A DNA stretch of 22,098 nt from Syntrophus sp. (in: bacteria) (GTDB taxonomy: Bacteria; Desulfobacterota; Syntrophorhabdia; Syntrophorhabdales; Syntrophorhabdaceae): positions 1 through 22,098 of the forward strand of contig PNOM01000051.1 in the NCBI GenBank assembly GCA_013824835.1. The letters run 5' to 3'. Each line of letters opens with the position of its first letter. Position 1 is the stretch's first letter. The translations under genes and the position numbers were made by a program. This document shows positions 31-14,301 of this stretch, one piece after another. The notes below the pieces were generated by a model, which ran no database searches, had not been told where the DNA came from, and was given only the letters and a program-made list of their open reading frames with translations.

Positions 31-72
31 AAGGCCGCAGGGGAAATCATATCCCCTGCGGCCTTTTGTTAT
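31..72 (+). terminator. Rho-independent terminator for an upstream gene outside the window
   Basis: Perfect stem AAGGCCGCAGGGGA / TCCCCTGCGGCCTT (about 14 bp) with a short loop, immediately followed by TTTTGTT. Confidence 0.55.
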
Positions 73-237: not shown

Positions 238-909
238 TTGACTCTTTACGAGGGCATCAGAGAAGGTTGGGGAACAAATCCTTTGGCAGATATGTCTAAT
301 AATACAGATAACCGGAACAGGGCATTGAAAGATGATAACAGGCTGGTATCCTTGTGTCTGAAAGGGGATGTGAATGCCTTTGAGGTTCTGGTAGAGAGGT
401 ATCAGAAAAGGATGCTCAATATTGCCTTCAGGATGACAGGGGATTATGAGGAGGCGTGCGATATCGTACAGGACGCATTTCTCGCAGCATACAGATCCAT
501 TAAAAAGTTCAGGGGTGACTCGGTTTTCTCTACATGGCTTACTGCCATCACCATAAATCACACAAAGAACCGTCTGAAGCAGATGAGGACCAGGCGCTAT
601 CACGAGGTGATATCAATTGACGATCCCCAGGATAATCAGGATGACCGTATCGCTTTTGAGCCCCAATACATTGGGCCTACTGCTGTGGAACAGCTTGAAA
701 CAAAGGATATTCAGGCTAAGGTGCAGGAATGCATTAATGCCCTTGATGAAGAATATAAAGCAGTGCTTGTGTTGCGGGATATTCAGGAGTTTTCTTATGA
801 CGAGATACGTGATATTCTTAAAATACCCGACGGAACGGTAAAATCACGGCTTTTCAGGGCAAGGGATGCCATAAAAAACTGCCTGAAAAAGATACTTGAG
901 GTATTGTGA
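238..909 (+). CDS. ECF-type sigma-70 family RNA polymerase sigma factor (RpoE-like)
   Basis: The translation shows the region 2 signature (VQDAFLAAYRSIKKFRG...FSTWLTAITINHTKNRL) and the region 4 HTH (LRDIQEFSYDEIRDILKIPDGTVKSRLFRARDAI). The stop overlaps the start of the next gene (ATGA at 906-909). The start is uncertain between TTG 238 (SD-like GAAAGAGAG upstream) and ATG 292. Confidence 0.85.
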   Translation: MTLYEGIREGWGTNPLADMSNNTDNRNRALKDDNRLVSLCLKGDVNAFEVLVERYQKRMLNIAFRMTGDYEEACDIVQDAFLAAYRSIKKFRGDSVFSTWLTAITINHTKNRLKQMRTRRYHEVISIDDPQDNQDDRIAFEPQYIGPTAVEQLETKDIQAKVQECINALDEEYKAVLVLRDIQEFSYDEIRDILKIPDGTVKSRLFRARDAIKNCLKKILEVL

Positions 910-2012
910 TGGACTGCAAAGGCATAGAAGAACAATTATCCGCCTATCTTGATGGCCCCATCTCCCCTGATGAGAAGGAGCATATCGATAATCACCTCGC
1001 ATCATGCCCCCAATGCAGCGCCTCCCTTAAAGGCCTGAAAAAAACAGGGGAACTCTTAAAAAATCTTGAAGAAGTAGAACCGCCCCCCTGGCTCACCCGA
1101 AAGATTATGGCCCATGTCCGGGAAGAGGCGGAGCAAAAGAAAGGCCTGCTCCATCGACTCTTTTATCCTCTCCACATCAAGATCCCCATGGAGACCTTTG
1201 CCACCCTTCTAATAGTTGGAATAACCCTCTATGTTTACAAGACTGTAGAACCTGAGATAAAATTTATCGAGTCTCCTCCTGGCATTACTCAGACCATTCC
1301 AAAGGATAAAGCCCTGAGACCAACGGAAATATCCCCTTTACCACAACAGCAGAATACAAAAAAGGATCGTTCTGCAAAAGAAGCGACGCCTGTTCCCTCT
1401 GTGCCTGTTGAAGAGGACGTACTGAGATTGAGGGGTGGGGCTATTTCGGATAAGGTTCGGGAAGAAAGAACAGCAATGGATGTTTCATCAAAAAAGGAAA
1501 CCCTTGATTCAGCGGTAATGCCCGCACCCGTTCCATCAGCCCCTGCACCTGCTTCAAGGGAGGCAAAAGGTTCTTTTTTTGAAGCCGGCAGGGCAAGTGA
1601 GGAGCGGGAACAAAGAGCGCGGGAGATGGGTTACTCTGCTGCTCGCCACGGGGCATCAAAGGCGAAACAACAGGATGAAGCTATCTCGAAGCAGGCTTCG
1701 GGGCATAGACCCGCAGGACAGTCAAAGGCAGCGGGTGCCCATAAACTCATGGAGACACCCGTGACTATAGAGGTTAAAGAGGTGAGTATTGCATTGAGGG
1801 AACTCGAAATACTTCTTAAGCAAATTGGCGCACAAGTGATTCAGAGAGAATCACGAGAAAATATGGAAATCGTTTTCACTCAGGTGAAGGCCGATAGAAT
1901 GGACACATTTTTTGAGAAATTGAAGGCCGTCGGAGAGATTAAGGGAAAGATTCCTTCCCTTGCTATTCTGGAAACAGACAGTATAATCCGTATAGAAATC
2001 ATCAAAAAATAG
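906..2012 (+). CDS. Membrane anti-sigma factor with an N-terminal zf-HC2 zinc finger
   Basis: HLASCPQC, an Hx3Cx2C motif typical of zf-HC2 anti-sigma factors (ChrR/RsrA-like), followed by a single TM helix (FATLLIVGITLYVY) and a Pro/Ala-rich extracytoplasmic region. The gene is translationally coupled to the preceding sigma gene. Confidence 0.7.
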   Translation: MMDCKGIEEQLSAYLDGPISPDEKEHIDNHLASCPQCSASLKGLKKTGELLKNLEEVEPPPWLTRKIMAHVREEAEQKKGLLHRLFYPLHIKIPMETFATLLIVGITLYVYKTVEPEIKFIESPPGITQTIPKDKALRPTEISPLPQQQNTKKDRSAKEATPVPSVPVEEDVLRLRGGAISDKVREERTAMDVSSKKETLDSAVMPAPVPSAPAPASREAKGSFFEAGRASEEREQRAREMGYSAARHGASKAKQQDEAISKQASGHRPAGQSKAAGAHKLMETPVTIEVKEVSIALRELEILLKQIGAQVIQRESRENMEIVFTQVKADRMDTFFEKLKAVGEIKGKIPSLAILETDSIIRIEIIKK

Positions 2013-2048
2013 CCCTCGGATATAAAAATATTTTGCCCCACTTCATCA

Positions 2049-2078
2049 GGAACTTTTTTAAACCTTCTGCTGTCTAAC
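2049..2078 (+). promoter_or_regulatory. Candidate ECF (RpoE/ECF02-like) sigma-dependent promoter upstream of the VIT-VWA gene
   Basis: GGAACTT (2049-2055), a 17 nt spacer, then TCTAACCC (2073-2080). This is nearly identical in architecture to E. coli rpoE P2 (GGAACTT-N16-TCTAACCC) and lies 36 nt upstream of the ATG at 2116. Confidence 0.5.
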
Positions 2079-2115
2079 CCAATAGAAGCAACTACAAGGA
2101 TCTCAGGAGGTTATT

Positions 2116-4473
2116 ATGAAAGGTATTTTAAAATTAACGGCTTTGGTTGTCCTTATATTTTTAAGTTTTTTCAACACGGGTTTCGGCAAAACCTTCCCCC
2201 CGCCTGACAAGGCTGATGATCGCACCCTGTCCCCCTATTTCTTTGTAAAGAGTGACGACCCCAATGTGGATCAACTCCCCCTGAAATCTACTTCTGCGGC
2301 AGTCACCATCTCGGGCGTAATCGCCGGGGTCGAGGTTACTCAGGTTTATAAAAATGAAGGGAAAAGACCGCTGGAGGCCATCTACGTCTTTCCCGCTTCA
2401 ACAAGGGCCGCAGTGCACGGAATGAAGATGACTGTAGGCAAAAGGGTGATAAAGGCGCGGATCAGCAAGCGGGAGGATGCGCGCCAGGAGTACGAAAAGG
2501 CGCGGGAGCAGGGGAAAAGCGCCTCTCTTCTGGAGCAGCAGAGGCCAAATGTCTTTCAGATGAATGTGGCGAATATTATGCCCGGAGATGAGATAAAGGT
2601 CGAACTCCAATATACCGAATTACTTATACCCACAGACAGGATATATGGGTTTGTCTATCCCACTGTTGTAGGTCCCCGCTACTCCAATCAATCAGCGGAA
2701 ACCGCATCCCCTTCTGAACACTGGGTGCAGAATCCCTATCTCCGGAAGGGAGAAGCGCCTGCCAGTACCTTTGATATTACTGTGAATCTTTCAGTAGGAA
2801 TGCCCATTAAAGACCTCTCCTCAACATCCCACAAAGTGAAGACAACCTTTAGCGGGCCTTCTGCAGCAAAAATTGAGCTCGATAAATCGGAAGTATACGG
2901 CAGTAATCGAGACTATATACTCCGTTACCGCCTCGATGGAGAACAGATACAGTCCGGACTTCTCCTCTATGAAGGGGAAAAGGAAAACTTTTTTCTACTC
3001 ATGATGCAGCCCCCAAAGAGGATTACCAATGCCCAAATCCCTGGCCGTGAATATGTGTTCATCGTTGATGTATCCGGTTCCATGTATGGATTTCCCCTGG
3101 AAATTTCAAAGAAACTTATAAAAAACCTCATCAGCAATCTCCGCACAACAGACCGGTTTAATGTCCTTCTCTTTTCCGGCGGTTCGTCCCTTATGTCCGA
3201 AGAATCGCAGCCTGCAACCCAGGAAAATATCAATAAGGCAATCAATCTAATTGACCGGCAGAAGGGAGGAGGCAGCACCGAGCTTCTCCCCGCACTCTCG
3301 CGAGCCCTTAAACTTGCAAGACCGGAAGGTTTTTCCCGTACTATCGTGATTGCAACGGATGGATATGTTACCGTGGAAGAAGAGGTTTTTGATCTTATCA
3401 GGAACAATCTTAATAATGCAAATATTTTTGCCTTCGGGATTGGAACAAGCGTTAACCGTCACATCATCGAAGGGATGGCCCATGTTGGCATGGGTGAACC
3501 TTTTGTCATCACCAGAGCTGAAGATGCGCCTGCAAAGGCAGACTCCTTCCGCACCATGATTCAATCCCCGGTATTAACCCGTGTAAAGGCGCACTTCAAC
3601 GGTTTTACCACCTACGACGTGGAGCCTGTTGCGATCCCTGATGTTTTAGCTGAACGGCCCGTGATCCTCTTCGGGAAATGGCGTGGCGCCCTCCAGGGAA
3701 CAATCGCCTTGAGCGGCCTATCCGGCAACGGAGAGTACAGGGATACCATCAACGTATCGACAATAAAGCCCTCGAAGACAAACGCTGCCCTTGAATATCT
3801 CTGGGCCCGTTACCGGATCACCCTCCTCTCCGATTACAATAATCTCCGCTCCAACGACAAACGGATCAAGGAGATAACCGGACTCGGTCTTGCCTATAAC
3901 CTTTTGACCCAATACACCTCCTTTGTTGCCGTTGACTCAGAGGTGCGGAACAAAGATGGCAAAGTGGTTACAGTAAAACAGCCTCTCCCCATGCCACAGG
4001 GTGTTTCCGAATATGCGGTGGGCAATGGACAATACTATGGGATGGGCGGCGGAAGATCAGGCTATGCCTCTCATTACGCTGCGGCAAAAATAGCAAGACT
4101 TACAGAATATGAAGGAAAAGGACGGCAGGAGCAGTTCGTCGCAAAAGATGAGGGTAAACCAAAAAAGGCTGTCCGGATCGGAGACATAACTGTATCAGAA
4201 GGACTGTCCAAAGCAGCAGTTATGAATGCCCTGCAAAAGTATATTGAAGAGATTGAAAAGTATTGTAGTGGAAGCAGTCTTAAAGGGAAGCTTCTTATTC
4301 GTCTGGTCATCAGGAAGGATGGTTCGGTAAAGAATTTTGCTATTACCTCCAGCACTTTAAAGAACAGTGATGTCGAGAAATGGATTTCCACACAGATTAT
4401 GAAATGGCAGTTTCCCCCTATTCAGAATGGCCGGGAGGCTCATGTAACCATTCCCTTTCTCTTCGGGACGTAG
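2116..4473 (+). CDS. Secreted VIT-VWA domain protein with a C-terminal TonB-C-like domain
   Basis: Strong SD (AGGAGGT) and an N-terminal signal peptide. The N-terminal region is VIT-like (AIYVFPASTRAAVHGMKMTVG...YEKAREQGKSASLLEQ). A VWA domain with the MIDAS motif DVSGSM sits in VFIVDVSGSMYG, followed by TDGY. The C-terminal 80 aa are TonB_C-like (GKLLIRLVIRKDGSVKNFAITSS...EAHVTIPFLF). Confidence 0.8.
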   Translation: MKGILKLTALVVLIFLSFFNTGFGKTFPPPDKADDRTLSPYFFVKSDDPNVDQLPLKSTSAAVTISGVIAGVEVTQVYKNEGKRPLEAIYVFPASTRAAVHGMKMTVGKRVIKARISKREDARQEYEKAREQGKSASLLEQQRPNVFQMNVANIMPGDEIKVELQYTELLIPTDRIYGFVYPTVVGPRYSNQSAETASPSEHWVQNPYLRKGEAPASTFDITVNLSVGMPIKDLSSTSHKVKTTFSGPSAAKIELDKSEVYGSNRDYILRYRLDGEQIQSGLLLYEGEKENFFLLMMQPPKRITNAQIPGREYVFIVDVSGSMYGFPLEISKKLIKNLISNLRTTDRFNVLLFSGGSSLMSEESQPATQENINKAINLIDRQKGGGSTELLPALSRALKLARPEGFSRTIVIATDGYVTVEEEVFDLIRNNLNNANIFAFGIGTSVNRHIIEGMAHVGMGEPFVITRAEDAPAKADSFRTMIQSPVLTRVKAHFNGFTTYDVEPVAIPDVLAERPVILFGKWRGALQGTIALSGLSGNGEYRDTINVSTIKPSKTNAALEYLWARYRITLLSDYNNLRSNDKRIKEITGLGLAYNLLTQYTSFVAVDSEVRNKDGKVVTVKQPLPMPQGVSEYAVGNGQYYGMGGGRSGYASHYAAAKIARLTEYEGKGRQEQFVAKDEGKPKKAVRIGDITVSEGLSKAAVMNALQKYIEEIEKYCSGSSLKGKLLIRLVIRKDGSVKNFAITSSTLKNSDVEKWISTQIMKWQFPPIQNGREAHVTIPFLFGT

Positions 4474-4483: not shown

Positions 4484-4707
4484 TTTTTACACGGATGCAC
4501 ACGGATAAGAGCACGATGTATACGGATGAAAGCAGGGAGAAGCAGCCAATGTAGACGGCATCGGGATAACCCACCAATGCCGTCTACACACCACCCCGCC
4601 TGAAGGCGGAGAGGGATTGACCGGATATGCCTGTGTATCGCATATCCGGTCAAATACAAAGCCCATCTGCTTTTATCTGCCTTTATCCGTGTCCATCCGT
4701 GTAAAAT
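4484..4707. repeat. Structured intergenic element bounded by 24 bp imperfect inverted repeats with nested perfect hairpins (MITE-like, bidirectional terminator, or structured RNA)
   Basis: TTTTACACGGATGCACACGGATAA (4485-4508) has as reverse complement TTATCCGTGTCCATCCGTGTAAAA (4683-4706), with 1 mismatch. Internal hairpins: GTAGACGGCAT/ATGCCGTCTAC (4551-4587), CCGCC-TGAA-GGCGG (4596-4609), and a 14 bp perfect stem TTGACCGGATATGC/GCATATCCGGTCAA (4617-4653). The element lies between convergent genes. Confidence 0.5.
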
Positions 4708-5083: not shown

Positions 5084-6259
5084 ATGAGGCTCCCTACGAG
5101 ACACGCGAAGAATCTGGTATTAATCATTCTAATGCTTATTTACCTGGTCCTGCTCATTCACTCCTATGCCCAAGCCGGGACGAAGGTAACGGAAGATAAC
5201 ACAAAACATAAGGCCACTCCCTCATCGTCGTTGAAAGTCGATATTATTGCTGAAGGAAAGGCACCCGTATCTGAGGACGAAGAAGAAGCAAAAAACACGG
5301 CAATTGAACATGCTAAAGATGTGGCCATCCTGAAAACAGCGGGTCATTTCGTAAATTCTGAGATCCTTCAGAAAGAACGAATAGTTCTTTTGAAAATATT
5401 TGCTTCAAGAAGAGATGAGATCATCGAAGACATCCGAATCCTTTCGGACCAGAAGACCGATGATGACTTTTACCGGATAAAGGCGGCCATTAAAGTGAGA
5501 AAAGACCTTGTGGAAGATGCCCTGATGAAAAATCTCTTCGATGACAGGGTAATCGTAATTGCCTCTGAGAAAAACAGCAAGAAAGCTCATACGCATTATA
5601 TATTCGAGAAGGAGCTCGTGAGGAGAATAAAGGGAAAGGGTTATACTGTTATTGACAGCAGTACCATGAAAAATAAGGCAACCAACAGCCTTATCGCTTC
5701 CGCCCGCCAGGGAAATCATGAGTCTCTCCGAAGGCTCGGAATCTATTGTCTGGCTGATGTGATTGTGGTTGGTTCTGTTGAGGCATCCTTCAGCGAAAAG
5801 ACCCAGGATATCTATTCATCCCGGGGAAAGGGGCTGGTCAGGATATATAGGATAGGGGATAAAAAAGAGATTGTCTCAGTCTCAAGACATGGCGTGAAGG
5901 GTTTCGGTTCTGATGAGGCCAAATCAGGCGTAGATGCAATCAGGCGGATATCACCCATGCTCGCAGATGAGGCGATAAAAGGCCTGCCTCCAAAACCTCT
6001 CAGGAAGGTTAAGGTATTCATAAAAGAGATTGAAAACCACGCATCCTTAGACAAGGCAAAAAGGATGCTCGCAGATATGCCGTACATAAGGGAGATAAAG
6101 AACGGTATTGCGGACATAAAAGGCGAAAAGGCTACGCTTTATATTAAAACGACAAAAAGCATTGATTATATTGTGAGAGAGATTGCTGAGCTTAAAAGAT
6201 TTGTCGTTACAAACGTTAAGGAATCCGTTATTTTTCTCGAAGCACGGAGGATAAATTAA
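5084..6259 (+). CDS. Secreted or periplasmic protein, with a possible LPP20/FlgP-like N-terminal domain
   Basis: Excellent SD (TAGGAGGT) 8 nt upstream, and a signal peptide or anchor (LVLIILMLIYLVLLIHSYAQA). The stretch KVDIIAEGKAPVSEDEEEAKNTAIEHAKDVAILKTAGHF resembles LPP20-family lipoproteins. Confidence 0.65.
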   Translation: MRLPTRHAKNLVLIILMLIYLVLLIHSYAQAGTKVTEDNTKHKATPSSSLKVDIIAEGKAPVSEDEEEAKNTAIEHAKDVAILKTAGHFVNSEILQKERIVLLKIFASRRDEIIEDIRILSDQKTDDDFYRIKAAIKVRKDLVEDALMKNLFDDRVIVIASEKNSKKAHTHYIFEKELVRRIKGKGYTVIDSSTMKNKATNSLIASARQGNHESLRRLGIYCLADVIVVGSVEASFSEKTQDIYSSRGKGLVRIYRIGDKKEIVSVSRHGVKGFGSDEAKSGVDAIRRISPMLADEAIKGLPPKPLRKVKVFIKEIENHASLDKAKRMLADMPYIREIKNGIADIKGEKATLYIKTTKSIDYIVREIAELKRFVVTNVKESVIFLEARRIN

Positions 6260-6310
6260 GTGGTTGTTTTTCCAAAGATATCCATTTATTATGTGATTGA
6301 AGGGGTAAAG

Positions 6311-7291
6311 ATGAAAAAGATTAATCTTGTTATCTTCGTATGTTTGTTGATTGTCGTTTCTGTTTTCGGGATCGCCGAAGGTGCAGATGATCTGAAGCCA
6401 GAGGCTTTGAAGAACCTTCAAAAGTCTGTGGTAAAGGCATTGCCTGTTGAAGGAAACATTGTCCGCATTGCAGTTCTTGATTTTAAGGGCGATGATGGTA
6501 CTGTCAAAAATGCCGTAATTTCAATTATCACGGAAAAAACCCCTTTTAAGGTCATAGAGCGGACAGACCTTGACAAGATTCTCAACGAGCAGGGTCTTCA
6601 ACTGAGAGATGTCATGGATGAAAAGACGAGGATACGGCACGGCAGATTAAAAGGCGTACAGGGGTTGCTCATGGGCAAAGTCCAGGGTATGGAGAAGGGC
6701 TTTATGTCCTATACGATCAAGGTTCATCTGAAGCTTGATGATGTAGAAAGAGGAGAAATTGTCTTTTCAAAGGATTTTAACGTCAGCGCGGTTTCACCCT
6801 TGAGGAAGATCCTTTTTGTTGTAATTGCTGTTTTTATGGCAGGGATCATTGTAATAATGTTCCTCGCAAGGAGAAAGGGTTCAATAAAGGAATCGGTAAT
6901 AAGCAAGGATGTAAAAGCCCGGGCCGATCTCACAATGGAAATGAATAAAGCCTTGACGATTGTGGGAGAGACAAAAAAGAGGCTCATGGATAAAGGAAGG
7001 ACAGATGAGGCAGTACTTCTGAAGGATGCTGAAAGAGACCTGCTTTTTCTTAAAGAGAGTATTAATAATGCAGCAAGAGGGAATGGAGGAACAGGGAGCG
7101 TAACAGGGCTGAAAGAAACTCTTAAGTTTGATAAGGGGTTTGCCGATTCCGTTCAGAACCTTTCCAGGATTTCAGGGATGCTTCACGATAACGTAATATC
7201 GGGAAGCTCAGGATCTCTCGAAAGAGAGATAGATAGCTTCAGGAGAAATATCAAGATTGCAATGAACGGATTCGGCAACCAGCGGCCATAA
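6311..7291 (+). CDS. Bitopic membrane protein with a periplasmic CsgG/LpoB-like domain and a cytoplasmic coiled tail
   Basis: ATG 6311 preceded by GAAGGGG. It has a signal peptide (MKKINLVIFVCLLIVVSVFGIAEG). The motif IAVLDFKGDDG...FKVIERTDLDKILNEQGLQL matches the conserved core of the CsgG/LpoB/TolB-N fold. A TM helix follows (ILFVVIAVFMAGIIVIMFL) with a C-terminal tail of about 150 aa. The ORF track's GTG 6260 extension is less likely. Confidence 0.65.
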   Translation: MKKINLVIFVCLLIVVSVFGIAEGADDLKPEALKNLQKSVVKALPVEGNIVRIAVLDFKGDDGTVKNAVISIITEKTPFKVIERTDLDKILNEQGLQLRDVMDEKTRIRHGRLKGVQGLLMGKVQGMEKGFMSYTIKVHLKLDDVERGEIVFSKDFNVSAVSPLRKILFVVIAVFMAGIIVIMFLARRKGSIKESVISKDVKARADLTMEMNKALTIVGETKKRLMDKGRTDEAVLLKDAERDLLFLKESINNAARGNGGTGSVTGLKETLKFDKGFADSVQNLSRISGMLHDNVISGSSGSLEREIDSFRRNIKIAMNGFGNQRP

Positions 7292-7357
7292 TGGAAGCCC
7301 TTCTTCAGCCGTCATTGTTTGTATGCTTTTCGAAGATGAATGAAAAAGGGGGTACCC

Positions 7358-8875
7358 ATGGCAGGAATAATTCGATGCAGCAAAGGACATGAAAACATTG
7401 AGGGCGATAATTTCTGCAGATTTTGCGGAGAAAGGATAGGTGTCGTCGAGACACCGCCGCCTATTGCGGGCATGTTGTGGCAGAGAGGCGCCAATGATTT
7501 TGTTACGAGGATTGATACCGACGACCTGCAGGGAATCCTGAAAAAAGGCATAATCATTGAACAAAGCACAAAGGCGCTCCTTTTCATTAACGGTACTCTC
7601 GCTGAAACTCTGTATCCTGGAAAGTATGACCTCGGGGGCCTCACCGGCATACTCAGGCCTTTTGAACCGTTCAGGACTGTTACAGCCCTCCTTGTTGACT
7701 CGGGTGATATTGAGTTTCCCTTTACCGTAACTGACGTATACACAAATGATCCTCTGAAGATTGGTGTTAGTTGCAAGATTATCATACAGATTGAGAACCC
7801 TGTTGTATTTCTTAACAATGTAATGAAGGGGAGAAAAAATTATCTCATCGGCGAGATCAGGGGTGCCCTCTATGACGAGCTGCAGAATGCGCTCAATGAA
7901 ACGGTGGGTAAAAAATCGTTAATTGACCTTAACTGGGATCTGTCCTTAAAGCAACAGTTTGAGGTCCAGGTGGAAAACCATCTCAGGACAACCTTCCAGC
8001 GGATGGGGTTGAGTTTAATCCAACTCAGGACCATAGATTACCGTTTCCAGGCCTTTGACAAAATCAGGGGTGTCTATGAAGAAATCTATCTTCAAGTGAG
8101 TGAAGAGGAAGCCCTTCTTCAGAAGAGAAAGCGGTTGTTTGATCTCTATGACCACAATCAGATTCAGGGCATTATCGAAGACACGAAAGAGCTTGAATAC
8201 AGGGAACAAAGGCAGAAGGTATGGGCCAACATGAGGCGCCTTGTCAATTCTGACAAGATGGATGATGTTAAGTCTGCCGATGACCTTGAAGCCTTTATTC
8301 ATGAAATGGATAAAGGGAAAATACTGCGGGATGAAGAGGTAAAAGACCTTGCGAATACCTTTGCCCAGAGCGGCCTGAGAAGAGATTTTCTGTTAAGTAA
8401 AATGCAGCTTGAGCAGGGGCTTGAGGCCCAGAGGATTCAGATGCTGGGCGCGGCTGAAAACGATCTGGCAGAATGGGAAATCCGGGCCAGGAAAGAACGG
8501 GAAGAGCTGGACATGAGCCTTGAAGGTCTTGAACGGGTTAAAAAAATAAAAACCCAGGAAAAACGTGAAGAAACGGATATTGAAATCGAAAGAGTGGGGC
8601 GTCTTACCCAATTGGGCGTTGAGGCGTTAATTCACGCCTCAGGTGTGGAGCAGGCGCAGATATTGGCAGACCTCAAGAAGACTGAAATATTAAAAGACCT
8701 GCCTGATGAAAAGATACTTGCCCTGGGGGCAAAGGATTCACCTGAGCTTGCGAAGGCCTTTCAGGAGAAATTCAGAGGGTTTTCATCGGATCTCCAGAAG
8801 AAAATGTATGAGGAGATGATGGAACAAAAAGATCAGTCCATGCGAATATTGCTGGAGATGTTTAATAAGAGATAA
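7358..8875 (+). CDS. SPFH/band-7 (flotillin-like) protein with an N-terminal zinc ribbon and a C-terminal coiled coil
   Basis: CSKGHENIEGDNFCRFCG is a zinc ribbon. The SPFH core is present (IIIEQSTKALLFINGTLAETLYPGKYDL ... TVTDVYTNDPLKIGVSCKIIIQIENPVVFLNNV). A long charged helical C-terminus resembles flotillin. SD AAAGGGGG lies 6 nt upstream of ATG 7358; the alternative ATG is at 7340. Confidence 0.75.
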   Translation: MAGIIRCSKGHENIEGDNFCRFCGERIGVVETPPPIAGMLWQRGANDFVTRIDTDDLQGILKKGIIIEQSTKALLFINGTLAETLYPGKYDLGGLTGILRPFEPFRTVTALLVDSGDIEFPFTVTDVYTNDPLKIGVSCKIIIQIENPVVFLNNVMKGRKNYLIGEIRGALYDELQNALNETVGKKSLIDLNWDLSLKQQFEVQVENHLRTTFQRMGLSLIQLRTIDYRFQAFDKIRGVYEEIYLQVSEEEALLQKRKRLFDLYDHNQIQGIIEDTKELEYREQRQKVWANMRRLVNSDKMDDVKSADDLEAFIHEMDKGKILRDEEVKDLANTFAQSGLRRDFLLSKMQLEQGLEAQRIQMLGAAENDLAEWEIRARKEREELDMSLEGLERVKKIKTQEKREETDIEIERVGRLTQLGVEALIHASGVEQAQILADLKKTEILKDLPDEKILALGAKDSPELAKAFQEKFRGFSSDLQKKMYEEMMEQKDQSMRILLEMFNKR

Positions 8876-9092: not shown

Positions 9093-12000
9093 ATGGTCTG
9101 CACAAAATGTGGTAATAACAACACCGATGATGCGGTCTTTTGTGTAAGCTGCGGGGCAAATCTTACTGATCAGACCCCATCTCAAAAAAGGCCTGACAGC
9201 GGTTTTTCCCAGGACATTGACACTGCACCCGGAGACCCCTCTTCCCATGACAACCTCGACCGTCTCGCCCACACCTCTATAAAGGATAACCATGATGCCC
9301 GCGGTTCCGGAGGGGCCCGCATCCCTGCAAGAGAAGAGGGTCTTTTCTTTTCTGTAGGCTCCTTTTTTGCTTCCCGGTACGAGATTCTCTCAGAAGGGAA
9401 AAAGGGCGGCATGGGTGTTGTTTATAAGGTAAAAGATGCCAAGCTTAACAAAATAAAGGCTTTGAAGGTTATCCATCCGAGGCTCTTATCCTCCCCCCAG
9501 GCCCTGTCACGATTCAGGCAGGAAGTCTCCTTATCCCAGGATCTCCACCACCTCAATATTGTAAGTGTCTATGATCTTGATGAATACCATGGAAGAGAGT
9601 TTTTCACCATGGAGTGGATAGAAGGACCATCCTTAAGGGAACTCCTCGCAGAGAGGAGGAAGGAACATAAGCCTTTCACCCTGGAGGAAGCCTGTGCCAT
9701 CATTTCCCAGCTTTCCGATGCCCTCTCTTATGCCCATCAATACACCATCCATCGGGATATTAAACCGGAGAATATATTAGTACAGAGGTCAGCAACCAGC
9801 AATCAGAAAACAAGAGAGACCATCCCCACCATTCCCCCTTTCGCAAAGGGGGAATTTATCCTCAAATTAACCGACTTTGGCATTGCCAAGATGCTCTCCC
9901 CGGCAGAGCTCATTACCACATCCCTTCAGATGGGTACTCCCTACTACATGGCGCCGGAGCAGAAGCTTGATGCTGCACATGTTGACCATAGAGCTGATAT
10001 CTATGCAGCAGGGGTAGTGTTCTTTGAACTTCTTACCTTAGAGAACACCATAGGGCCTGATCTTCCCAGTGAACTCAATTGTGCTGTCCCAAAAGAAGTA
10101 GATGGCATCTACCGGAAAGCGGTTGCGACAAAACCGGAGAACCGATGGGGAGAGGTAAGGGAACTATCTCAAGCCCTCCACACCATAATTATCGCGGAGA
10201 GGAGAAAGAGTGAGGAGGGGGTATGGAAGGAGGGATGGCATAGGAAAACCGATGCCAAAGAGAGAACAGGAAAAGAGACGGGAGAGGTTGGAAGGAAGAC
10301 GATTGAGAATGAATGTCTCACGGTGGAAACTGAAGAGACAGAGTTGAGAAGGTTGGGGGAAGAGAGACTTCGCACAGAAAACAAAGAGAAAAAAAGAGCG
10401 GAAGAAGAGAAGAATAGAATCGAAGAGGAGGGACTGCGCAAGGAAACAGAGGAAAGGAGGCGGAAAGAAGAGGAAAAGCGCCTCCTGAGGGAACAGGAGG
10501 AGGCTGAAAAACAGATTCTGACGGATGAACTCAAGGGACAGAAAGAAAGATCAAGAAAGCGATCAAGGATTATTCTTATTAGTTTCTGCATCTTTGGGGC
10601 AATGGTGCTCCTTGCGTCGGCTATCGGATATGTCTCCTACCGCCACGCACAGCAGCAGGTTGTCCTAACCCGGCAGCTTGAAAAAGAGAAAAGGGAAAAA
10701 GAACAATTAACAGAAAGGCAGAAGGCGATAGAAGCAAAACAGCAGGCAGACCTGCAGAGGCTGGAAGAACAAAGGAAACATGAAGATCGAAAAATATATG
10801 TTGATGAGAAAAAACAGGAAGGCCGGATAAAACAAGGGCAGTTGCTTCTTCGGAAGGCTCGGGCTTCTATAAAAAAGGGAAACCTCTCAGATGCACGAAG
10901 TTATCTCGAAGAGGCAAAGGGGTTTATTCCGGATGATAAGAATGTTGTAAGTATGGCCAATATCATTGAGAATGAAGAGAAAAAACAGAAAGTTGCTGTA
11001 GACAGGCAGCGCCAGTATGAGGAGGAAAAACGGGCAGAAGAACAAAAACGGGCAGAAGAACAAAAACGGGCAGAAGAACAAAAAAGAAAAGAAGCAGAAG
11101 AAAAAAGGGTTGCTGAAGAACAAAGGCTTGCAAGAGAGCGAAAGATTGCAGAGGAACAAAAAGTTGCAAGGGAACGAAAGGCAGAGGAGGAACGAAGGCT
11201 TGCAGAACAGAAAAGACAGAAGGAAGAACAAAGGCTTGCAAGAGAGCGAAAGGCGGCGGAAGAGCTTGCCGAAAAACAGAGAGCTGCTGAAGCTAAATGG
11301 CAGGGGGGTATAATAAAACTGAATTACACTAATTTTTTCCCGGCTACACACCTTCAAAGCATCACTGCAGAGAAATGGTGCCGGGAAATAGAGAAAAAGA
11401 CCCGTAACAGGATTAAATTTGCCTATTATCCGGGAGGCGCCCTTACGCCGCCGCCTCAAACCTATGATGCCGTTGTGAAGGGTACTGCCGACATTGGAAT
11501 GAGTGTTTTTGCCTATACAAAAGGAAGATTCCCCCTCACGGAAGTTATTGATCTGCCCCTTGGTTATCGGAGCGGTCTTGTGGCAACAAGGCTGATAAAT
11601 GAATACTACAAAAGGTTTCGACCCAATGAGCTTGGTGATGTTAAAGTGCTTTATCTCCATGCTCATGGTCCGGGAATATTGCATACAAAGAGCCCTGTAT
11701 ACAGGCTTGAAGACTTGAGTGGCATGAAAATAAGAGCTACAGGACCGGCAGCAAAAATTGCGCCCGCCCTTGGGGCTGCGCCTGTGGCCATATCGATGCC
11801 GGAGGCATATGACGCCCTCCGCACCGGTGTTGCAGAGGGGGCTTTTGTTCCCATTGAGGCCCTCCTGGGCTGGAAATGGGGTGAAGTTATAAATTCGACA
11901 ACCCAATGTTTCGGCGTTGCATATTCAATCGGCATGTTTGTTGTGATGAATAAAACAAAGTGGAATTCCCTTCCCCCGGATATTCAAAGGATTTTTGAAC

Positions 12001-12245
12001 AGGTCAGCGCCGAATGGATAGAAGTTCAGGGCAGGGCATGGGATGAAATAGACAAAAAGGGGAGAGAATTTACTTTAAGAAGGGGTAATAAACTTATTCC
12101 CTTATCTCAAGAGGAAGATGCACGATGGACTGCAAGAGTACGGCCACTCCTTGATGAATATGTAAGAAATACAAGATCAAAGGGGCTTCCTGGAGATGAA
12201 GCATTGAAATTCTGCCTTGATTACCTTGCCAGGCATAAGAGATGA
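9093..12245 (+). CDS. Ser/Thr protein kinase with an N-terminal zinc ribbon, one TM segment, a KE-rich helical stalk and a C-terminal DctP/TRAP-type solute-binding domain
   Basis: The zinc ribbon is CTKCGNNNTDDAVFCVSCG. Kinase motifs are GKKGGMGVVYKV, ALKVI, HRDIKPENILV, DFGIAK and PYYMAPE. The TM helix is IILISFCIFGAMVLLASAIGYV (about nt 10566-10635). KE-rich repeats include EEQKRAEEQKRAEEQKR. The C-terminal domain resembles DctP (IKLNYTNFFPATHLQS...KFAYYPGGAL...DAVVKGTADIGMSVFAYTKGRFPLTEVIDLPLGY ... ALRTGVAEGAFVPIEALLGWKWGEV). Confidence 0.85.
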   Translation: MVCTKCGNNNTDDAVFCVSCGANLTDQTPSQKRPDSGFSQDIDTAPGDPSSHDNLDRLAHTSIKDNHDARGSGGARIPAREEGLFFSVGSFFASRYEILSEGKKGGMGVVYKVKDAKLNKIKALKVIHPRLLSSPQALSRFRQEVSLSQDLHHLNIVSVYDLDEYHGREFFTMEWIEGPSLRELLAERRKEHKPFTLEEACAIISQLSDALSYAHQYTIHRDIKPENILVQRSATSNQKTRETIPTIPPFAKGEFILKLTDFGIAKMLSPAELITTSLQMGTPYYMAPEQKLDAAHVDHRADIYAAGVVFFELLTLENTIGPDLPSELNCAVPKEVDGIYRKAVATKPENRWGEVRELSQALHTIIIAERRKSEEGVWKEGWHRKTDAKERTGKETGEVGRKTIENECLTVETEETELRRLGEERLRTENKEKKRAEEEKNRIEEEGLRKETEERRRKEEEKRLLREQEEAEKQILTDELKGQKERSRKRSRIILISFCIFGAMVLLASAIGYVSYRHAQQQVVLTRQLEKEKREKEQLTERQKAIEAKQQADLQRLEEQRKHEDRKIYVDEKKQEGRIKQGQLLLRKARASIKKGNLSDARSYLEEAKGFIPDDKNVVSMANIIENEEKKQKVAVDRQRQYEEEKRAEEQKRAEEQKRAEEQKRKEAEEKRVAEEQRLARERKIAEEQKVARERKAEEERRLAEQKRQKEEQRLARERKAAEELAEKQRAAEAKWQGGIIKLNYTNFFPATHLQSITAEKWCREIEKKTRNRIKFAYYPGGALTPPPQTYDAVVKGTADIGMSVFAYTKGRFPLTEVIDLPLGYRSGLVATRLINEYYKRFRPNELGDVKVLYLHAHGPGILHTKSPVYRLEDLSGMKIRATGPAAKIAPALGAAPVAISMPEAYDALRTGVAEGAFVPIEALLGWKWGEVINSTTQCFGVAYSIGMFVVMNKTKWNSLPPDIQRIFEQVSAEWIEVQGRAWDEIDKKGREFTLRRGNKLIPLSQEEDARWTARVRPLLDEYVRNTRSKGLPGDEALKFCLDYLARHKR
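11041..11094 (+). repeat. Perfect 3 x 18 bp in-frame tandem repeat (ACGGGCAGAAGAACAAAA, encoding RAEEQK) inside the kinase stalk
   Basis: Three identical 18 bp units are seen directly. Degenerate 36 bp repeats of about 180 bp follow (11095-11275) and encode (AEEQRLARERK)n. TTGCAAGAGAGCGAAAG occurs twice. Confidence 0.9.
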
Positions 12246-13492: not shown

Positions 13493-13527
13493 AAACTGGT
13501 TCCAATTAATTAAAAGATAGAGCAAAC

Positions 13528-14301
13528 ATGGACGAGAAGAAACGTATTTATATAAAGGTGGATTCCATCATTAAAGAGGACGGCAAATCCTCCTATATCG
13601 GCGAGGATGATTATGTGAGCCTTACAAAAGATGGAATTATCATCCATTTCCATATTAAAAATCCTTCCATCCATATGGAGAATGTCTTGAGGACAGTAAA
13701 ACGGGCCCAGAAGATCGTAAGGGACCGCCTTGACTATGAACTCGAAAATATTGATATCAGTATTTACGGGTCAAAAGAGGAACTCAGACAGGAAGGCAGG
13801 TCAAGGAGTGTATATGCTTCATGGATAGCGGGAATATTTGATGGAAAAATCAGGATTATTGCTGATGGAGGGGAAGAAGATCCGGAAGCGCTCTATATTG
13901 TCCTGACTCACGAGATTATTCATCTTGCAGTATTTCATATAGGCCAGGGGCAATGCCCTTACTGGATGGAAGAGGGAGTGGCTGTGTATCTTTCCCAGGA
14001 GCTCCCGGACCAATACCTCCATGCACTGAAAAAGGCGATTAAGTCCGATAGAATACTGCCCCTTGATGCCCTGAAAACCCCCCTCCCCGTTGATGTTGAC
14101 CTGGACATACGTCAGCTTCTCTACTCGGAAACATCCAGCATCGTCGAGTACCTTGTGGAATCCTACGGCTGGGATGCAGTCAAGTCCATAATCCGGCAAT
14201 GCAGACAGGTGAAATTCAGCGAACTGTTAGCCGGCCTGAGTCTCAATCACTATCTTTTAGAACAGGGGTGGAAAAGGTGGTACAGGAATAAAAATGCATA
14301 A
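13528..14301 (+). CDS. Peptidase_MA-like (gluzincin-type HExxH...E) domain protein
   Basis: THEIIHLAVFH (HExxH) is followed by WMEEGVAVYL, with the third-ligand Glu in an EGxAxY context as in the Peptidase_MA_2 family. No signal peptide is visible. Confidence 0.6.
   Translation: MDEKKRIYIKVDSIIKEDGKSSYIGEDDYVSLTKDGIIIHFHIKNPSIHMENVLRTVKRAQKIVRDRLDYELENIDISIYGSKEELRQEGRSRSVYASWIAGIFDGKIRIIADGGEEDPEALYIVLTHEIIHLAVFHIGQGQCPYWMEEGVAVYLSQELPDQYLHALKKAIKSDRILPLDALKTPLPVDVDLDIRQLLYSETSSIVEYLVESYGWDAVKSIIRQCRQVKFSELLAGLSLNHYLLEQGWKRWYRNKNA

What the first reader, a model, noticed from the sequence alone, without database searches (positions are those of the whole stretch)
238..4473. Self-contained ECF sigma / zf-HC2 anti-sigma / RpoE-type promoter / VIT-VWA-TonB_C cassette
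A sigma/anti-sigma pair is followed at 36 nt from the next ATG by GGAACTT-N17-TCTAACCC. This is almost a copy of the E. coli rpoE P2 promoter architecture. It predicts that the ECF sigma directly drives the large secreted VIT-VWA protein. No equivalent motif is visible upstream of the sigma gene itself, so the target, rather than autoregulation, is the visible output. Sigma-controlled VIT-VWA proteins ending in a TonB-C-like domain are not a textbook regulon.
Basis: partly seen in the sequence, partly recalled or inferred. Interest (0 to 1): 0.6.

Follow-up and report, generated by a model that had tools for sequence, protein, structure and literature searches.

The report
ECF sigma module driving VIT-VWA protein
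A stress-type sigma factor, its membrane anti-sigma factor and a large secreted adhesin-like protein form a conserved three-gene module in anaerobic syntrophic and sulfate-reducing bacteria, wired by a strongly conserved RpoE-like promoter; the wiring is ordinary, but this target protein has not been described for it.

Summary
The motif is present as described: GGAACTT-N17-TCTAACCC at 2049-2080, 35 nt before the VIT-VWA start codon.

It is not chance. In 80 related loci from Syntrophia, Syntrophorhabdia, Desulfobacteria and Nitrospirota, the same motif (GGAACTTTT-N13/14-TGTCTAA) lies upstream of the VIT-VWA gene in 71 of 76 usable loci. This holds even where no sigma gene is nearby.

The window has a second, identically spaced copy at 271-299 (GGAACAA-N17-TCTAAT), at the 5' end of the sigma gene. 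This copy is conserved in 34 of 39 sigma loci. The five exceptions have sigma directly downstream of VIT-VWA, so it can share that gene's promoter.

The sigma is RpoE/AlgU-like, with a nearly identical -35 recognition helix. It is paired with a zinc-finger, single-pass anti-sigma rather than RseA. It fits the published ECF25 or ECF281 groups by promoter and anti-sigma type, but I could not run the group models.

The target resembles human inter-alpha-inhibitor heavy chain 1. It has an intact metal-binding site and an AgmX/PglI (TonB_C-like) C-terminal domain.

One oddity remains. In the window's lineage the sigma-proximal -10 element contains the conserved start codon (ATGTCTAA). That promoter may therefore feed only the anti-sigma and VIT-VWA genes.

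Verdict: real, conserved, a new variant of a known kind, moderately interesting.

The parts
271..300 (+). Sigma-proximal ECF-type promoter motif. GGAACAA is at 271-277, the 17-nt spacer follows, and (A)TGTCTAAT is at 292-300, with GTCTAA at 294-299. The predicted start of transcription is about A306. The motif overlaps the first in-frame ATG (292).
   Evidence: It is the second of only two GGAAC-N19-TCTAA hits in the window. It is conserved in 34 of 39 sigma loci. Of the 120 closest sigma clusters, about 80 begin MSN or MSK, which is ATG-TCT-AAx.
238..909 (+). ECF sigma factor gene. The mechanical ORF and NCBI's call start at TTG238 (223 aa). The likely start is ATG292 (205 aa). TTG325 is the first in-frame start after the predicted start of transcription.
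   Evidence: Pfam finds Sigma70_r2 and Sigma70_r4_2. The best NCBIfam matches are RpoE-type models, below their cut-offs. The closest solved structures are AlgU and sigmaE. P0121 is the 100% match.
909..2012 (+). Single-pass anti-sigma factor (367 aa). It has an N-terminal zinc-finger anti-sigma domain with H29-x3-C33-x2-C36. A conserved LFYPLHIK motif and a transmembrane helix (residues 94-117, nt 1188-1259) follow. Next comes a disordered periplasmic linker of about 155 residues. The C-terminal domain (residues 282-366, nt 1752-2006) is ferredoxin-like.
   Evidence: Pfam finds zf-HC2 and DUF2275. In the 40-sequence alignment, H29, C33 and C36 are invariant. The AlphaFold2 model has pLDDT above 90 for both end domains. 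There is a weak match to the N-terminal part of DUF4349 (E 0.006). Its own Shine-Dalgarno sequence, GAGGT, is at 897-901 (read).
2049..2080 (+). ECF-type promoter of the VIT-VWA gene. The -35 element GGAACTTTT is at 2049-2057 and the -10 element TGTCTAA at 2071-2077. The predicted start of transcription is about A2084.
   Evidence: for the window. It is conserved in 71 of 76 related loci, 25-60 nt before the start codon in most.
2063..2068 (+). CCTTCT pyrimidine block in the promoter spacer, complementary to the downstream Shine-Dalgarno sequence. It may act as an anti-Shine-Dalgarno sequence in read-through transcripts.
   Evidence: A CCTCC-like block is present in 37 of 63 VIT-VWA promoters but in 1 of 34 sigma promoters. 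The predicted fold of read-through RNA pairs 2061-2069 with 2104-2112, but the z-score is not significant.
2105..2110 (+). Strong Shine-Dalgarno sequence (AGGAGG) of the VIT-VWA gene.
   Evidence: Read. AAGGAGG is conserved 5-9 nt before the ATG in most loci.
2116..4473 (+). Secreted VIT-VWA-AgmX/PglI_C protein (785 aa). The signal peptide spans residues 1 to about 24. The VIT domain spans residues 56-166 (nt 2281-2613) and the VWA domain residues 314-460 (nt 3055-3495). The metal-binding (MIDAS) residues are D318, S320, S322, T388 and D415. The TonB_C-like domain spans residues 699-783 (nt 4210-4464).
   Evidence: Pfam and NCBIfam hits. The five MIDAS residues are invariant in 24 homologues. 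In the AlphaFold2 model the C-terminal domain has pLDDT 80-90 and an alpha-beta-beta-alpha-beta order. The best Foldseek match is human inter-alpha-inhibitor heavy chain 1 (6fpy, E 1e-28).

Best explanation
**What it is.** This is a three-gene envelope-signalling module.
- **Anti-sigma.** A zinc-finger, single-pass anti-sigma factor holds an RpoE/AlgU-like ECF sigma at the inner membrane.
- **Signal.** The signal is unknown. It is presumably sensed by the anti-sigma's conserved periplasmic C-terminal domain, or acts through regulated proteolysis. This step is inferred.
- **Sigma.** When freed, the sigma directs RNA polymerase to promoters of the form GGAAC(T/A)(T/A)(T/A)T-N13/14-TGTCTAA.

**Promoter 1 (2049-2077)** drives the VIT-VWA gene. 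Its product is exported by a signal peptide. It looks like an inter-alpha-inhibitor heavy chain: a VIT domain plus a metal-dependent VWA ligand-binding domain. Its TonB_C-like (AgmX/PglI) C-terminal domain most likely docks it non-covalently to an outer-membrane protein or to the cell wall (inferred). Related proteins use a C-terminal sortase signal, and the human heavy chains a C-terminal ester link, for attachment.

**Promoter 2 (271-299)** sits at the 5' end of the sigma/anti-sigma operon.
- In Desulfobacteria-type relatives the sigma ATG lies 4-5 nt after the -10 element. The sigma mRNA would then be leaderless, giving positive autoregulation.
- In the window's lineage the -10 element contains the conserved start codon (ATGTCTAA). 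Transcripts from this promoter probably lack the sigma start. They would then supply the anti-sigma, and VIT-VWA by read-through, giving negative feedback. Sigma itself would need an upstream promoter.

**Shown:** the motifs, their conservation, the linkage and the domain content. **Inferred:** which sigma binds, where transcription starts, the signal, and what the protein does in the envelope.
For: **Motif position and conservation**
- Two identically spaced hits in the window.
- 72 of 81 exact sites in 796 kb lie directly upstream of VIT-VWA or sigma genes.
- With one mismatch allowed, 99 of 117 do; shuffled sequence gives about 31 sites in total.
- Relaxed scan: 71 of 76 VIT-VWA loci and 34 of 39 sigma loci carry the motif.
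- The five sigma loci without it have the order VIT-VWA, sigma, anti-sigma. One of them is the cultured Syntrophus buswellii DM-2 (L037).

**Linkage**
- Sigma lies upstream on the same strand in 26 loci, downstream in 8 and divergent in 5.
- Spacer class (N17 or N18) agrees between the sigma and VIT-VWA promoters in 31 of 33 genomes.
- None of the window's 16 other genes recurs near VIT-VWA in the 80 loci.

**Sigma specificity**
- The sigma is closest to AlgU and sigmaE. The recognition helix reads GTVKSRLFRARDAI against GTVRSRIFRAREAI.
- The E. coli sigmaE consensus is GGAACTTTT / GGTCAAAA (Rhodius 2006, PMC1312014).

**Proteins**
- The anti-sigma has the invariant H-x3-C-x2-C motif, one transmembrane helix and a confident C-terminal domain.
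- The target has a complete MIDAS site, an ITIH1-like fold and NF033768 above its cut-off.

**Start-codon arrangement**
- The ATG lies 4-5 nt after GTCTAA in 13 or more N17-class loci.
- About 80 of the 120 closest sigma clusters begin MSN or MSK.

**Precedent.** E. coli has a second sigmaE promoter that feeds rseA alone.
Against: - No transcription start, binding or expression data exist for any member. All promoter assignments are computational.
- The same promoter type serves other ECF groups. In a metagenome scan the motif also preceded LTXXQ/Metal_resist, DegP/HtrA and other genes, next to sigmas only 30-35% identical to this one. Another RpoE-like sigma in the same cell could therefore read these promoters.
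- In the window's lineage the sigma-proximal motif cannot drive a transcript that contains the conserved ATG. Its function there is uncertain.
- The whole-genome regulon could not be scanned, so 'two promoters only' holds only for the sequence examined.
- The VIT-VWA model has low overall confidence (mean pLDDT 60.8).
- The anti-sigma C-terminal domain has no significant match among solved structures.
Confidence: 0.75

Rival explanations
1. The promoters are real ECF promoters, but a different RpoE-like sigma of the cell reads them (cross-talk). The adjacent sigma/anti-sigma pair would be only a neighbour.
For: - The GGAACTTTT / TGTCTAA type is shared by several ECF groups. It precedes LTXXQ, DegP and other genes next to sigmas only 30-35% identical to this one.
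- ECF281, ECF25 and E. coli sigmaE all have GGAAC / GTC-type predictions.
- In some genomes VIT-VWA and this sigma are unlinked.
Against: - The same motif sits on the sigma's own gene in 34 of 39 loci.
- Linkage survives three rearranged gene orders. This includes VIT-VWA, sigma, anti-sigma operons that have a single promoter.
- Spacer length agrees within genomes in 31 of 33 cases.
Confidence: 0.12
2. The VIT-VWA protein is not only the output. It is part of the sensing and feedback apparatus, for example a periplasmic partner of the anti-sigma's C-terminal domain, much as RseB modulates RseA. This can be true alongside the main explanation.
For: - The visible regulon is very narrow: the sigma operon plus VIT-VWA.
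- In some genomes all three genes form one operon (L037, L011, L035).
- The published ECF255, ECF289 and ECF226 systems place VWA and/or TonB_C domains on or next to the anti-sigma.
- The anti-sigma has a conserved periplasmic domain of unknown partner.
Against: - No interaction evidence exists, and complex prediction was not possible with these tools.
- VIT-VWA and the sigma pair are unlinked in several genomes.
- Orthologous sigmas can have a DUF4139 gene in place of VIT-VWA as the adjacent target. This fits an interchangeable output better than an obligate co-sensor.
Confidence: 0.25
3. In the window, the sigma-proximal motif gives classical positive autoregulation. Transcription starts near A306 and sigma is translated from TTG325. 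ATG292 would not be the true start.
For: - TTG325 is in frame, 19 nt after the predicted start of transcription. It would leave an N-terminus comparable to that of E. coli sigmaE.
- One close relative has an ATG at the matching position (P0123...TLMKDD...).
- Desulfobacteria-type relatives clearly place the sigma start just after the -10 element.
Against: - Several relatives (L015, L018, L032, L040) have no in-frame ATG, GTG or TTG between the -10 element and the sigma2 domain.
- The motif keeps a constant reading phase over six different distances to sigma2. Insertions and deletions among more than 100 clusters stay in frame. The stretch therefore looks translated.
- The base before TGTCTAA is A (making ATG) in 7 of 16 N18-class sigma sites, but in about 1 of 43 VIT-VWA sites.
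- The Shine-Dalgarno sequence before TTG325 is weak.
Confidence: 0.25
4. The motif at 2049-2080 is a chance match and the VIT-VWA gene is transcribed by the housekeeping sigma.
For: A sigma70-like match (TTGCTA-16-TATAAT, 1960-1987) lies about 60 nt upstream. However, such matches in the region are not clearly in excess of shuffles (11 against 6.9 +/- 2.5).
Against: The motif is conserved in position and sequence in 71 of 76 orthologous loci whose spacers and flanks have diverged. About 0.2 loci would be expected by chance.
Confidence: 0.01

Closest known systems
E. coli sigmaE (RpoE)-RseA and P. aeruginosa AlgU-MucA envelope-stress systems (ECF02)
   Same: - They are the closest solved sigmas (E 1e-33 and 1e-27) and have a nearly identical sigma4 recognition helix.
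- The -35 element GGAACTTTT is the same, and the -10 element is related (TGTCTAA against GGTCAAAA).
- A sigma-dependent promoter sits on the system's own operon.
- E. coli also has a second sigmaE promoter that feeds only the anti-sigma.
   Different: - The anti-sigma is a zinc-finger (H-x3-C-x2-C) plus DUF2275 protein, not RseA or MucA.
- No RseB or RseC genes are present.
- The TIGR02939 RpoE model scores 143 bits against a 236-bit cut-off.
- The visible target is a VIT-VWA protein rather than outer-membrane assembly factors.
ECF25 (SigG-SapG of Nostoc punctiforme) and ECF281 of the ECF classification 2.0 (Casas-Pastor et al. 2021)
   Same: - The predicted promoters are GGAAC / GTC for ECF25 and GGAACTT-Xn-GTCTAA for ECF281.
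- Both have a one-helix, zinc-binding anti-sigma at position +1, sometimes carrying DUF4349.
- ECF25 includes Deltaproteobacteria and Nitrospirae.
- The window's anti-sigma has a weak DUF4349 match.
- The window's sigma is 34% identical to an ECF281s4 member.
   Different: - No VIT, VWA or TonB_C gene is listed in the conserved context of either group.
- Group membership could not be tested because the group models were not available.
- DUF2275 is reported in that work only for ECF36.
ECF255 (Bacteroidetes), ECF289 and ECF226
   Same: These ECF systems combine a sigma, a one-helix anti-sigma, a VWA-domain protein and, in ECF255, a TonB_C domain.
   Different: - In ECF255 the TonB_C domain is on the anti-sigma. 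The secreted VWA protein carries DUF3520 and CarboxypepD_reg and has no VIT domain.
- In ECF289 and ECF226 the VWA domain is fused to the anti-sigma.
- Their promoters differ: TATGGAT / GCATCT for ECF255 and CCCAAGGA / CGTCTxA for ECF289.
Inter-alpha-inhibitor heavy chains (ITIH1, PDB 6fpy) and the 'marine proteobacterial sortase target' VIT-VWA proteins (TIGR03788)
   Same: - All share a VIT plus VWA architecture with a MIDAS site.
- ITIH1 is the best fold match (E 1e-28, 664 aligned columns).
- TIGR03788 aligns over residues 58-631 at 419 bits.
- All carry a C-terminal attachment device.
   Different: - The C-terminus here is an AgmX/PglI (TonB_C-like) domain. It is not an LPXTG sortase signal, nor the ester-forming C-terminus of the human heavy chains.
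- The TIGR03788 score is below its 551.65-bit cut-off.
Myxococcus GltG/GltJ (PglI/AgmX) TonB-like proteins
   Same: The C-terminal domain matches NF033768 above its cut-off, and matches the C-termini of GltG and GltJ.
   Different: GltG and GltJ are inner-membrane-anchored parts of the gliding motor. This protein has a cleavable signal peptide and a VIT-VWA body, and no gliding genes are nearby.

Membership tests
ECF (group IV) sigma factors | Only sigma2 and sigma4 domains; about 200 aa | tested here: met
   Sigma70_r2 (62.8 bits) and Sigma70_r4_2 (54.6 bits) are found, and no region 1 or 3. TIGR02937 sigma70-ECF scores 105 bits against a 42.9-bit cut-off.
ECF (group IV) sigma factors | Cognate anti-sigma encoded next to the sigma, with an AAC-containing -35 element and a GTC or CGT -10 element | tested here: met
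   A zf-HC2 anti-sigma overlaps the sigma stop codon. GGAAC...GTCTAA is conserved on the sigma operon in 34 of 39 loci.
ECF02 (RpoE-RseA type) | RseA/MucA-type anti-sigma, RseB partner, and the RpoE equivalog score | tested here: not met
   The anti-sigma matches zf-HC2 and DUF2275 only. TIGR02939 scores 143.2 bits against a 236.15-bit cut-off. No RseB-like gene is in the window.
ECF281 / ECF25 (ECF classification 2.0) | Predicted promoter GGAACTT-Xn-GTCTAA (ECF281) or GGAAC / GTC (ECF25) | tested here: met
   Consensus from 63 VIT-VWA and 34 sigma sites, compared with supplementary table and text of 10.1101/2019.12.11.873521.
ECF281 / ECF25 (ECF classification 2.0) | One-helix, zinc-binding anti-sigma at +1, optionally with DUF4349 | tested here: met
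   H29, C33 and C36 are invariant and there is one transmembrane helix. The DUF4349 match is weak (E 0.006, below cut-off).
ECF281 / ECF25 (ECF classification 2.0) | Score above threshold against the group's own HMM (ECF Hub models) | not testable with these tools
   The models are not available here. Peptide searches of the stored supplementary sequence tables found nothing. The sigma is 34% identical to one ECF281s4 member.
Zinc-binding anti-sigma (ZAS) factors | N-terminal anti-sigma domain with an H-x3-C-x2-C motif | tested here: met
   zf-HC2 scores 43.4 bits against a 22.2-bit cut-off. H29, C33 and C36 are invariant in 40 sequences. The model matches RslA (Foldseek probability 0.96, but E 0.26). 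Zinc binding itself was not tested.
VIT-VWA (inter-alpha-inhibitor heavy-chain-like) proteins | VIT domain followed by a VWA domain with a complete MIDAS site (DxSxS...T...D) | tested here: met
   VIT scores 124 bits and VWA_3 57 bits. D318, S320, S322, T388 and D415 are invariant. The fold matches 6fpy at E 1e-28, on a model with mean pLDDT of only 60.8.
Marine proteobacterial sortase target (TIGR03788) | Equivalog score, a C-terminal LPXTG sorting signal and an adjacent sortase | tested here: not met
   It scores 419 bits against a 551.65-bit cut-off. The C-terminus is ...HVTIPFLFGT with no LPXTG or transmembrane tail. No sortase was seen among the neighbours scanned.
AgmX/PglI C-terminal (TonB_C-like) domain | Match to NF033768 or PF03544 and a TonB C-terminal-type fold | tested here: met
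   NF033768 scores 57.2 bits against a 40-bit cut-off. PF03544 scores 21.3 bits against 24.6, which is sub-threshold. PF03544 is precomputed in many homologues. The model shows alpha-beta-beta-alpha-beta at pLDDT 80-90.
TonB energy transducers | N-terminal membrane anchor with an ExbB/ExbD partnership and a proline-rich spacer | tested here: not met
   The N-terminus is a cleavable-type signal peptide followed by VIT-VWA. No ExbB or ExbD genes are in the window.

The most novel reading that the evidence does not exclude
In the Syntrophia, Syntrophorhabdia and Nitrospirota lineage, the sigma-dependent promoter is built into the sigma gene's own start codon (ATGTCTAA serves as Met-Ser-Asn/Lys and as the -10 element). 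Active sigma would then make transcripts that encode the anti-sigma, and by read-through VIT-VWA, but not sigma itself. That is a hard-wired negative feedback. Sister lineages use the same promoter to make a leaderless sigma mRNA, which is positive feedback. The induced VIT-VWA-TonB_C protein would be a bacterial counterpart of the inter-alpha-inhibitor heavy chains. It would dock to the outer membrane or cell wall and bind an envelope ligand during stress. A spacer anti-Shine-Dalgarno block would keep it silent on read-through transcripts.
Probability: 0.2. Interest if true: 0.6.

Novelty: new variant of a known kind. Interest (0 to 1): 0.4.

Why it matters
ECF sigma/anti-sigma pairs are among the commonest bacterial signalling devices. 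For most groups the output genes are unknown.

Here comparative genomics gives an unusually clean prediction: a two-promoter regulon whose dedicated output is a widespread but uncharacterised envelope protein family.
- More than 8000 homologues were found.
- The protein has an ITIH-like VIT-VWA body with a TonB_C-like anchor.
- It occurs in syntrophic and sulfate-reducing bacteria and in Nitrospirota.

This yields a testable handle on what bacterial VIT-VWA proteins do. It also yields a well-defined promoter-sigma pair. The two start-codon arrangements form a natural experiment in how one ECF promoter can be wired for positive or negative feedback.

It does not overturn any principle. The architecture is the standard ECF one.

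Tried and rejected
- **Gene calls for the window's contig.** I looked up the contig through its VIT-VWA protein. Nothing was on record.
- **Known RNAs.** An Rfam scan of the whole window found nothing.
- **ECF group assignment.** I searched the stored supplementary sequence tables of the ECF classification for conserved peptides (FYPLHIK, VEPPPW, LVERYQKKM and others). There were no hits because the files are truncated. Searches for VIT, VWA, inter-alpha-trypsin and Syntrophus in those supplements found no group with this context.
- **Literature.** Searches for ECF with VIT and von Willebrand, for DUF2275, and for 'vault protein inter-alpha-trypsin' with Syntroph* found no description of this module.
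- **Anti-sigma fold.** A fold search against solved structures gave no significant match (best E 0.09). The sensed signal remains unknown.
- **A larger conserved operon.** I tested the downstream genes (FlgT_N-like, CsgG/LpoB-like, SPFH, kinases and others). None of the 16 window genes recurs in the 80 loci, so this idea was rejected.
- **Leaderless sigma mRNA in the window.** Rejected for this lineage, because no ATG or GTG lies at +4 to +8 after the -10 element.
- **MuiA link for the DUF4139 protein.** The match is only E 0.005 and far below cut-off, so I make no claim.
- **Housekeeping promoter upstream of sigma.** The consensus scan found no convincing sigma70 promoter before position 300 in the window.

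Full report
**1. Observation**

The window is a 22,098-bp contig of a 'Syntrophus sp.' metagenome-assembled genome. The VIT-VWA, sigma and anti-sigma proteins match NCBI entries at 100% identity (P0001, P0121, P0241).

Reading the sequence and searching the pattern confirm the motif. GGAACTT is at 2049-2055, the 17-nt spacer follows, TCTAACCC is at 2073-2080, and the ATG is at 2116.

The three genes are as described:
- ORF 238-909 has Sigma70_r2 and Sigma70_r4_2.
- ORF 906/909-2012 has zf-HC2 and DUF2275.
- ORF 2116-4473 has VIT and VWA.

The C-terminal 90 residues of the third protein match NCBIfam's AgmX/PglI C-terminal domain above its cut-off (57 bits against 40). They match the TonB C-terminal models only below threshold.

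GGAAC-N19-TCTAA occurs only twice in the window, against 0.26 expected. The second copy is at 271-299: GGAACAA-N17-TCTAAT, same strand and same spacing, at the 5' end of the sigma ORF.

**2. The motif is a conserved element**

The VIT-VWA protein has more than 8000 homologues. I aligned 24 of them. With that alignment I fetched 80 loci from one genome per species. They cover Syntrophia, Syntrophorhabdia, Desulfobacteria-type lineages and Thermodesulfovibrionales/Nitrospirota. They include the cultured Syntrophus buswellii DM-2.

Counts over the window plus these loci (796 kb, both strands):
- 81 exact GGAAC-N17-19-GTC[TA]AA sites. Of these, 44 lie within 150 nt upstream of VIT-VWA and 28 within 150 nt upstream of sigma. 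Six of the other nine are VIT-type sites further upstream of VIT-VWA.
- With one mismatch allowed, 99 of 117 sites lie at those two positions. Shuffled sequence gives about 31 sites in total.
- A relaxed scan finds the motif upstream of VIT-VWA in 71 of 76 loci and upstream of sigma in 34 of 39.

Spacers and flanks have diverged, while GGAAC and TGTCTAA are close to invariant. The consensus is GGAACTTTT-N13/14-TGTCTAA for VIT-VWA and GGAAC(A/C)(A/T)(A/T)T-N-TGTCTAA for sigma.

VIT-VWA genes carry a strong AAGGAGG ribosome-binding site and a 25-45-nt leader.

**3. Which sigma reads it**

The sigma/anti-sigma pair lies within the fetched flanks of VIT-VWA in 39 of the 81 sequences (the window plus the 80 loci), in three arrangements:
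- upstream on the same strand, 26 loci (including the window)
- downstream on the same strand, 8 loci
- divergent, 5 loci

Of the 42 loci without a sigma, 25 have less than 3 kb on at least one side.

The five sigma loci without their own motif all have sigma immediately downstream of VIT-VWA. One promoter would then serve all three genes.

Two spacer classes, N18 and N17, agree between the two promoters in 31 of 33 genomes.

The sigma is most similar to P. aeruginosa AlgU and E. coli sigmaE. Its sigma4 recognition helix is almost the same: GTVKSRLFRARDAI against GTVRSRIFRAREAI. The mapped E. coli sigmaE consensus is GGAACTTTT / GGTCAAAA (Rhodius et al. 2006, PMC1312014).

None of the window's 16 other genes recurs near VIT-VWA. 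The module is therefore these three genes.

In some genomes the parts are separated:
- about 18 kb apart in Syntrophus sp. SW.3.55
- more than 10 kb apart in Syntrophorhabdus aromaticivorans UI, where the sigma still carries the motif

**4. An unbiased check of the regulon**

I scanned metagenome contigs for GGAACTTTT-N13/14-TGTCTAA. I clustered the first downstream ORFs and annotated representatives.

| Downstream gene family | Sites |
|---|---|
| ECF sigma | 12 |
| LTXXQ / Metal_resist | 12 |
| Unknown secreted protein, 270-290 aa | 9 |
| Gly/Tyr-rich small secreted protein | 9 |
| VIT-VWA | 7 |
| DUF4139 secreted protein | 7 |
| DegP/HtrA | 6 |
| S-layer-like | 5 |
| Singletons | 30 |

Several envelope-stress ECF groups therefore share this promoter type.

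Sigmas orthologous to the window's are 51-62% identical and are followed by a full-length anti-sigma of the same family. They sit next to VIT-VWA (L119, L142) or next to a motif-bearing DUF4139 gene (L087, L102, L110, L145). In L043 the order is promoter, DUF4139, VIT-VWA.

The LTXXQ genes lie next to sigmas only about 30-35% identical to this one.

For this sigma family, the targets seen are its own operon, VIT-VWA and, in some lineages, DUF4139. Cross-talk with other RpoE-like sigmas cannot be excluded.

**5. The proteins**

*Anti-sigma*
- An alignment of 40 homologues shows an invariant H29-x3-C33-x2-C36 motif. It also shows conserved EVEPPPW and LFYPLHIK motifs before a single transmembrane helix. 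A variable Pro/Ala/Lys-rich linker and a conserved C-terminal domain follow.
- AlphaFold2 gives pLDDT above 90 for both end domains. Residues 124-278 are disordered. Residues 282-366 form a beta-alpha-beta-beta-alpha-beta domain.
- That domain has no significant match among solved structures. It has only a weak match to the N-terminal part of DUF4349.

*VIT-VWA*
- It has a signal peptide and all five MIDAS residues invariant.
- The model is of modest confidence (mean pLDDT 60.8). Its best match is human inter-alpha-inhibitor heavy chain 1 (6fpy, E 1e-28, 664 aligned columns).
- The C-terminal domain is confident and has a TonB_C-like order of secondary structure.
- The body aligns with the 'marine proteobacterial sortase target' model below its cut-off. 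There is no LPXTG signal.
- By analogy with those relatives, the C-terminal domain is most likely an anchoring device. This is inference.

**6. The sigma-proximal promoter and the start codon**

In the N17-class (Desulfobacteria-type) loci the sigma ATG begins 4-5 nt after GTCTAA. That is where transcription would start, so the sigma mRNA would be leaderless.

In the window's N18 class the first in-frame start is inside the -10 element: ATG-TCT-AAT.
- About 80 of the 120 closest sigma clusters begin MSN or MSK.
- The base before TGTCTAA is A in 7 of 16 such sigma sites, but in about 1 of 43 VIT-VWA sites.
- The motif keeps a constant reading phase over six different distances to the sigma2 domain. 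The stretch after the -10 element therefore looks translated.
- Several relatives have no alternative in-frame start downstream.

A start of transcription 6-7 nt after TCTAA is about A306, within a conserved CAGA. It would exclude ATG292. In the window, the next in-frame start is TTG325, with a weak ribosome-binding site.

There are two readings:
- **(a) Anti-sigma-only transcripts.** An upstream promoter makes sigma mRNA. The ECF promoter makes transcripts that encode only the anti-sigma, which has its own GAGGT ribosome-binding site at 897-901. With no terminator before 2049, VIT-VWA would follow by read-through. E. coli has a comparable second sigmaE promoter in front of rseA. Candidate sigma70-type promoters lie upstream of the motif in Syntrophorhabdia. 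None is convincing in the window.
- **(b) Classical positive autoregulation** from TTG325.

I favour (a) weakly. Only 5' end mapping or N-terminal proteomics can decide.

**7. Comparison with what is known**

The ECF classification of Casas-Pastor et al. (2021) is held as PMC7826278. I read its supplements in the bioRxiv version, 10.1101/2019.12.11.873521. It lists these groups:
- **ECF281:** promoter GGAACTT-Xn-GTCTAA, and a one-helix zinc-finger anti-sigma at +1, some carrying DUF4349.
- **ECF25:** promoter GGAAC / GTC, and a zinc-binding and/or DUF4349 anti-sigma. It includes Deltaproteobacteria and Nitrospirae. Its studied member, SigG, responds to envelope stress.
- **ECF255, ECF289, ECF226 and the original ECF20:** these combine ECF sigmas with VWA and/or TonB_C proteins, but with the domains distributed differently.

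None of these lists a VIT-VWA-TonB_C target. My literature searches found no description of one.

The system works like a standard ECF module. Membership of ECF02 was tested and is not met. Membership of ECF25 or ECF281 is plausible but untested.

**8. Verdict**

- The main interpretation, that the neighbouring ECF sigma drives VIT-VWA, is well supported by comparative evidence. It has no experimental support.
- The claim that the sigma gene has no motif is wrong.
- The module is a conserved, previously undescribed variant of a familiar design.
- One puzzling detail remains: the -10 element and the start codon overlap.
- Interest is moderate (0.4).

Noticed in passing
window 2063-2068 and 2105-2110; VIT-VWA promoters of L001-L080: VIT-VWA promoters carry a CCTCC-like block in the spacer just before TGTCTAA (37 of 63 sites, against 1 of 34 sigma promoters). 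It is complementary to the gene's AGGAGG ribosome-binding site. In the predicted fold of read-through RNA, 2061-2069 pairs with 2104-2112. RNA from the predicted start of transcription is unstructured. The z-score is not significant and no covariation test was possible.
   Followed up: partly
window 4487-4705: An intergenic element of about 220 bp lies after the VIT-VWA stop. It has terminal inverted repeats (ttacacggatgcacacggataag ... cttatccgtgtccatccgtgtaa) and two internal hairpins (gtagacggcat/atgccgtctac and gaccggatatgc/gcatatccggtc). It could be a terminator cluster or a small repeat element.
   Followed up: no
window 33-66 and 157-225: A terminator-like hairpin followed by a T-run (33-66) is followed by two further hairpins (actccggcgaaagccggagt and attccgtgtcaagcacggaat) in the leader region upstream of the sigma gene. 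Rfam has no match for them.
   Followed up: partly
window 9093-18978: This cluster holds two Ser/Thr protein kinases, one of them fused to a zinc ribbon and a DctP-type solute-binding domain. It also holds a Peptidase_MA_2 protein, a weak sigma70_r2-like ORF (14337-14930), an FtsW/RodA homologue and a penicillin-binding transpeptidase. It may be a separate cell-wall signalling module.
   Followed up: no
window 5084-8875: Three genes lie downstream on the same strand: an FlgT_N-like secreted protein, a CsgG/LpoB-like lipoprotein and an SPFH/Band 7 protein. They are not conserved next to VIT-VWA in any of the 80 loci.
   Followed up: yes
window 20706-21299: A BglII-type restriction endonuclease gene (Pfam E 6e-44).
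   Followed up: no
L043 3421-4969; L087 5199-6720; L102, L110, L145: A secreted DUF4139 protein of about 485 aa is a second recurrent target of the same promoter, next to orthologous sigma/anti-sigma pairs. In L043 it sits between the promoter and VIT-VWA. It has only a very weak match to the MuiA family (E 0.005).
   Followed up: partly
L008, L009, L013, L024, L028 (about 100 nt upstream of the sigma-proximal GGAAC); L081 9918-9952: A conserved sigma70-like block (TTTCTTTGCAATC-N-GTGCTGTAAAACATC) lies upstream of the ECF motif in the divergent Syntrophorhabdia loci. S. aromaticivorans has TTGATT-N17-TAATGT in the corresponding region. These are candidate housekeeping promoters for the sigma operon.
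   Followed up: partly
L085, L094 and seven other metagenome loci; L088, L099 and seven others: Two uncharacterised secreted protein families recur directly downstream of the same promoter motif in metagenomes. One is 270-290 aa with a VAVDGRNII motif and no Pfam match. The other is small and Gly/Tyr-rich.
   Followed up: no
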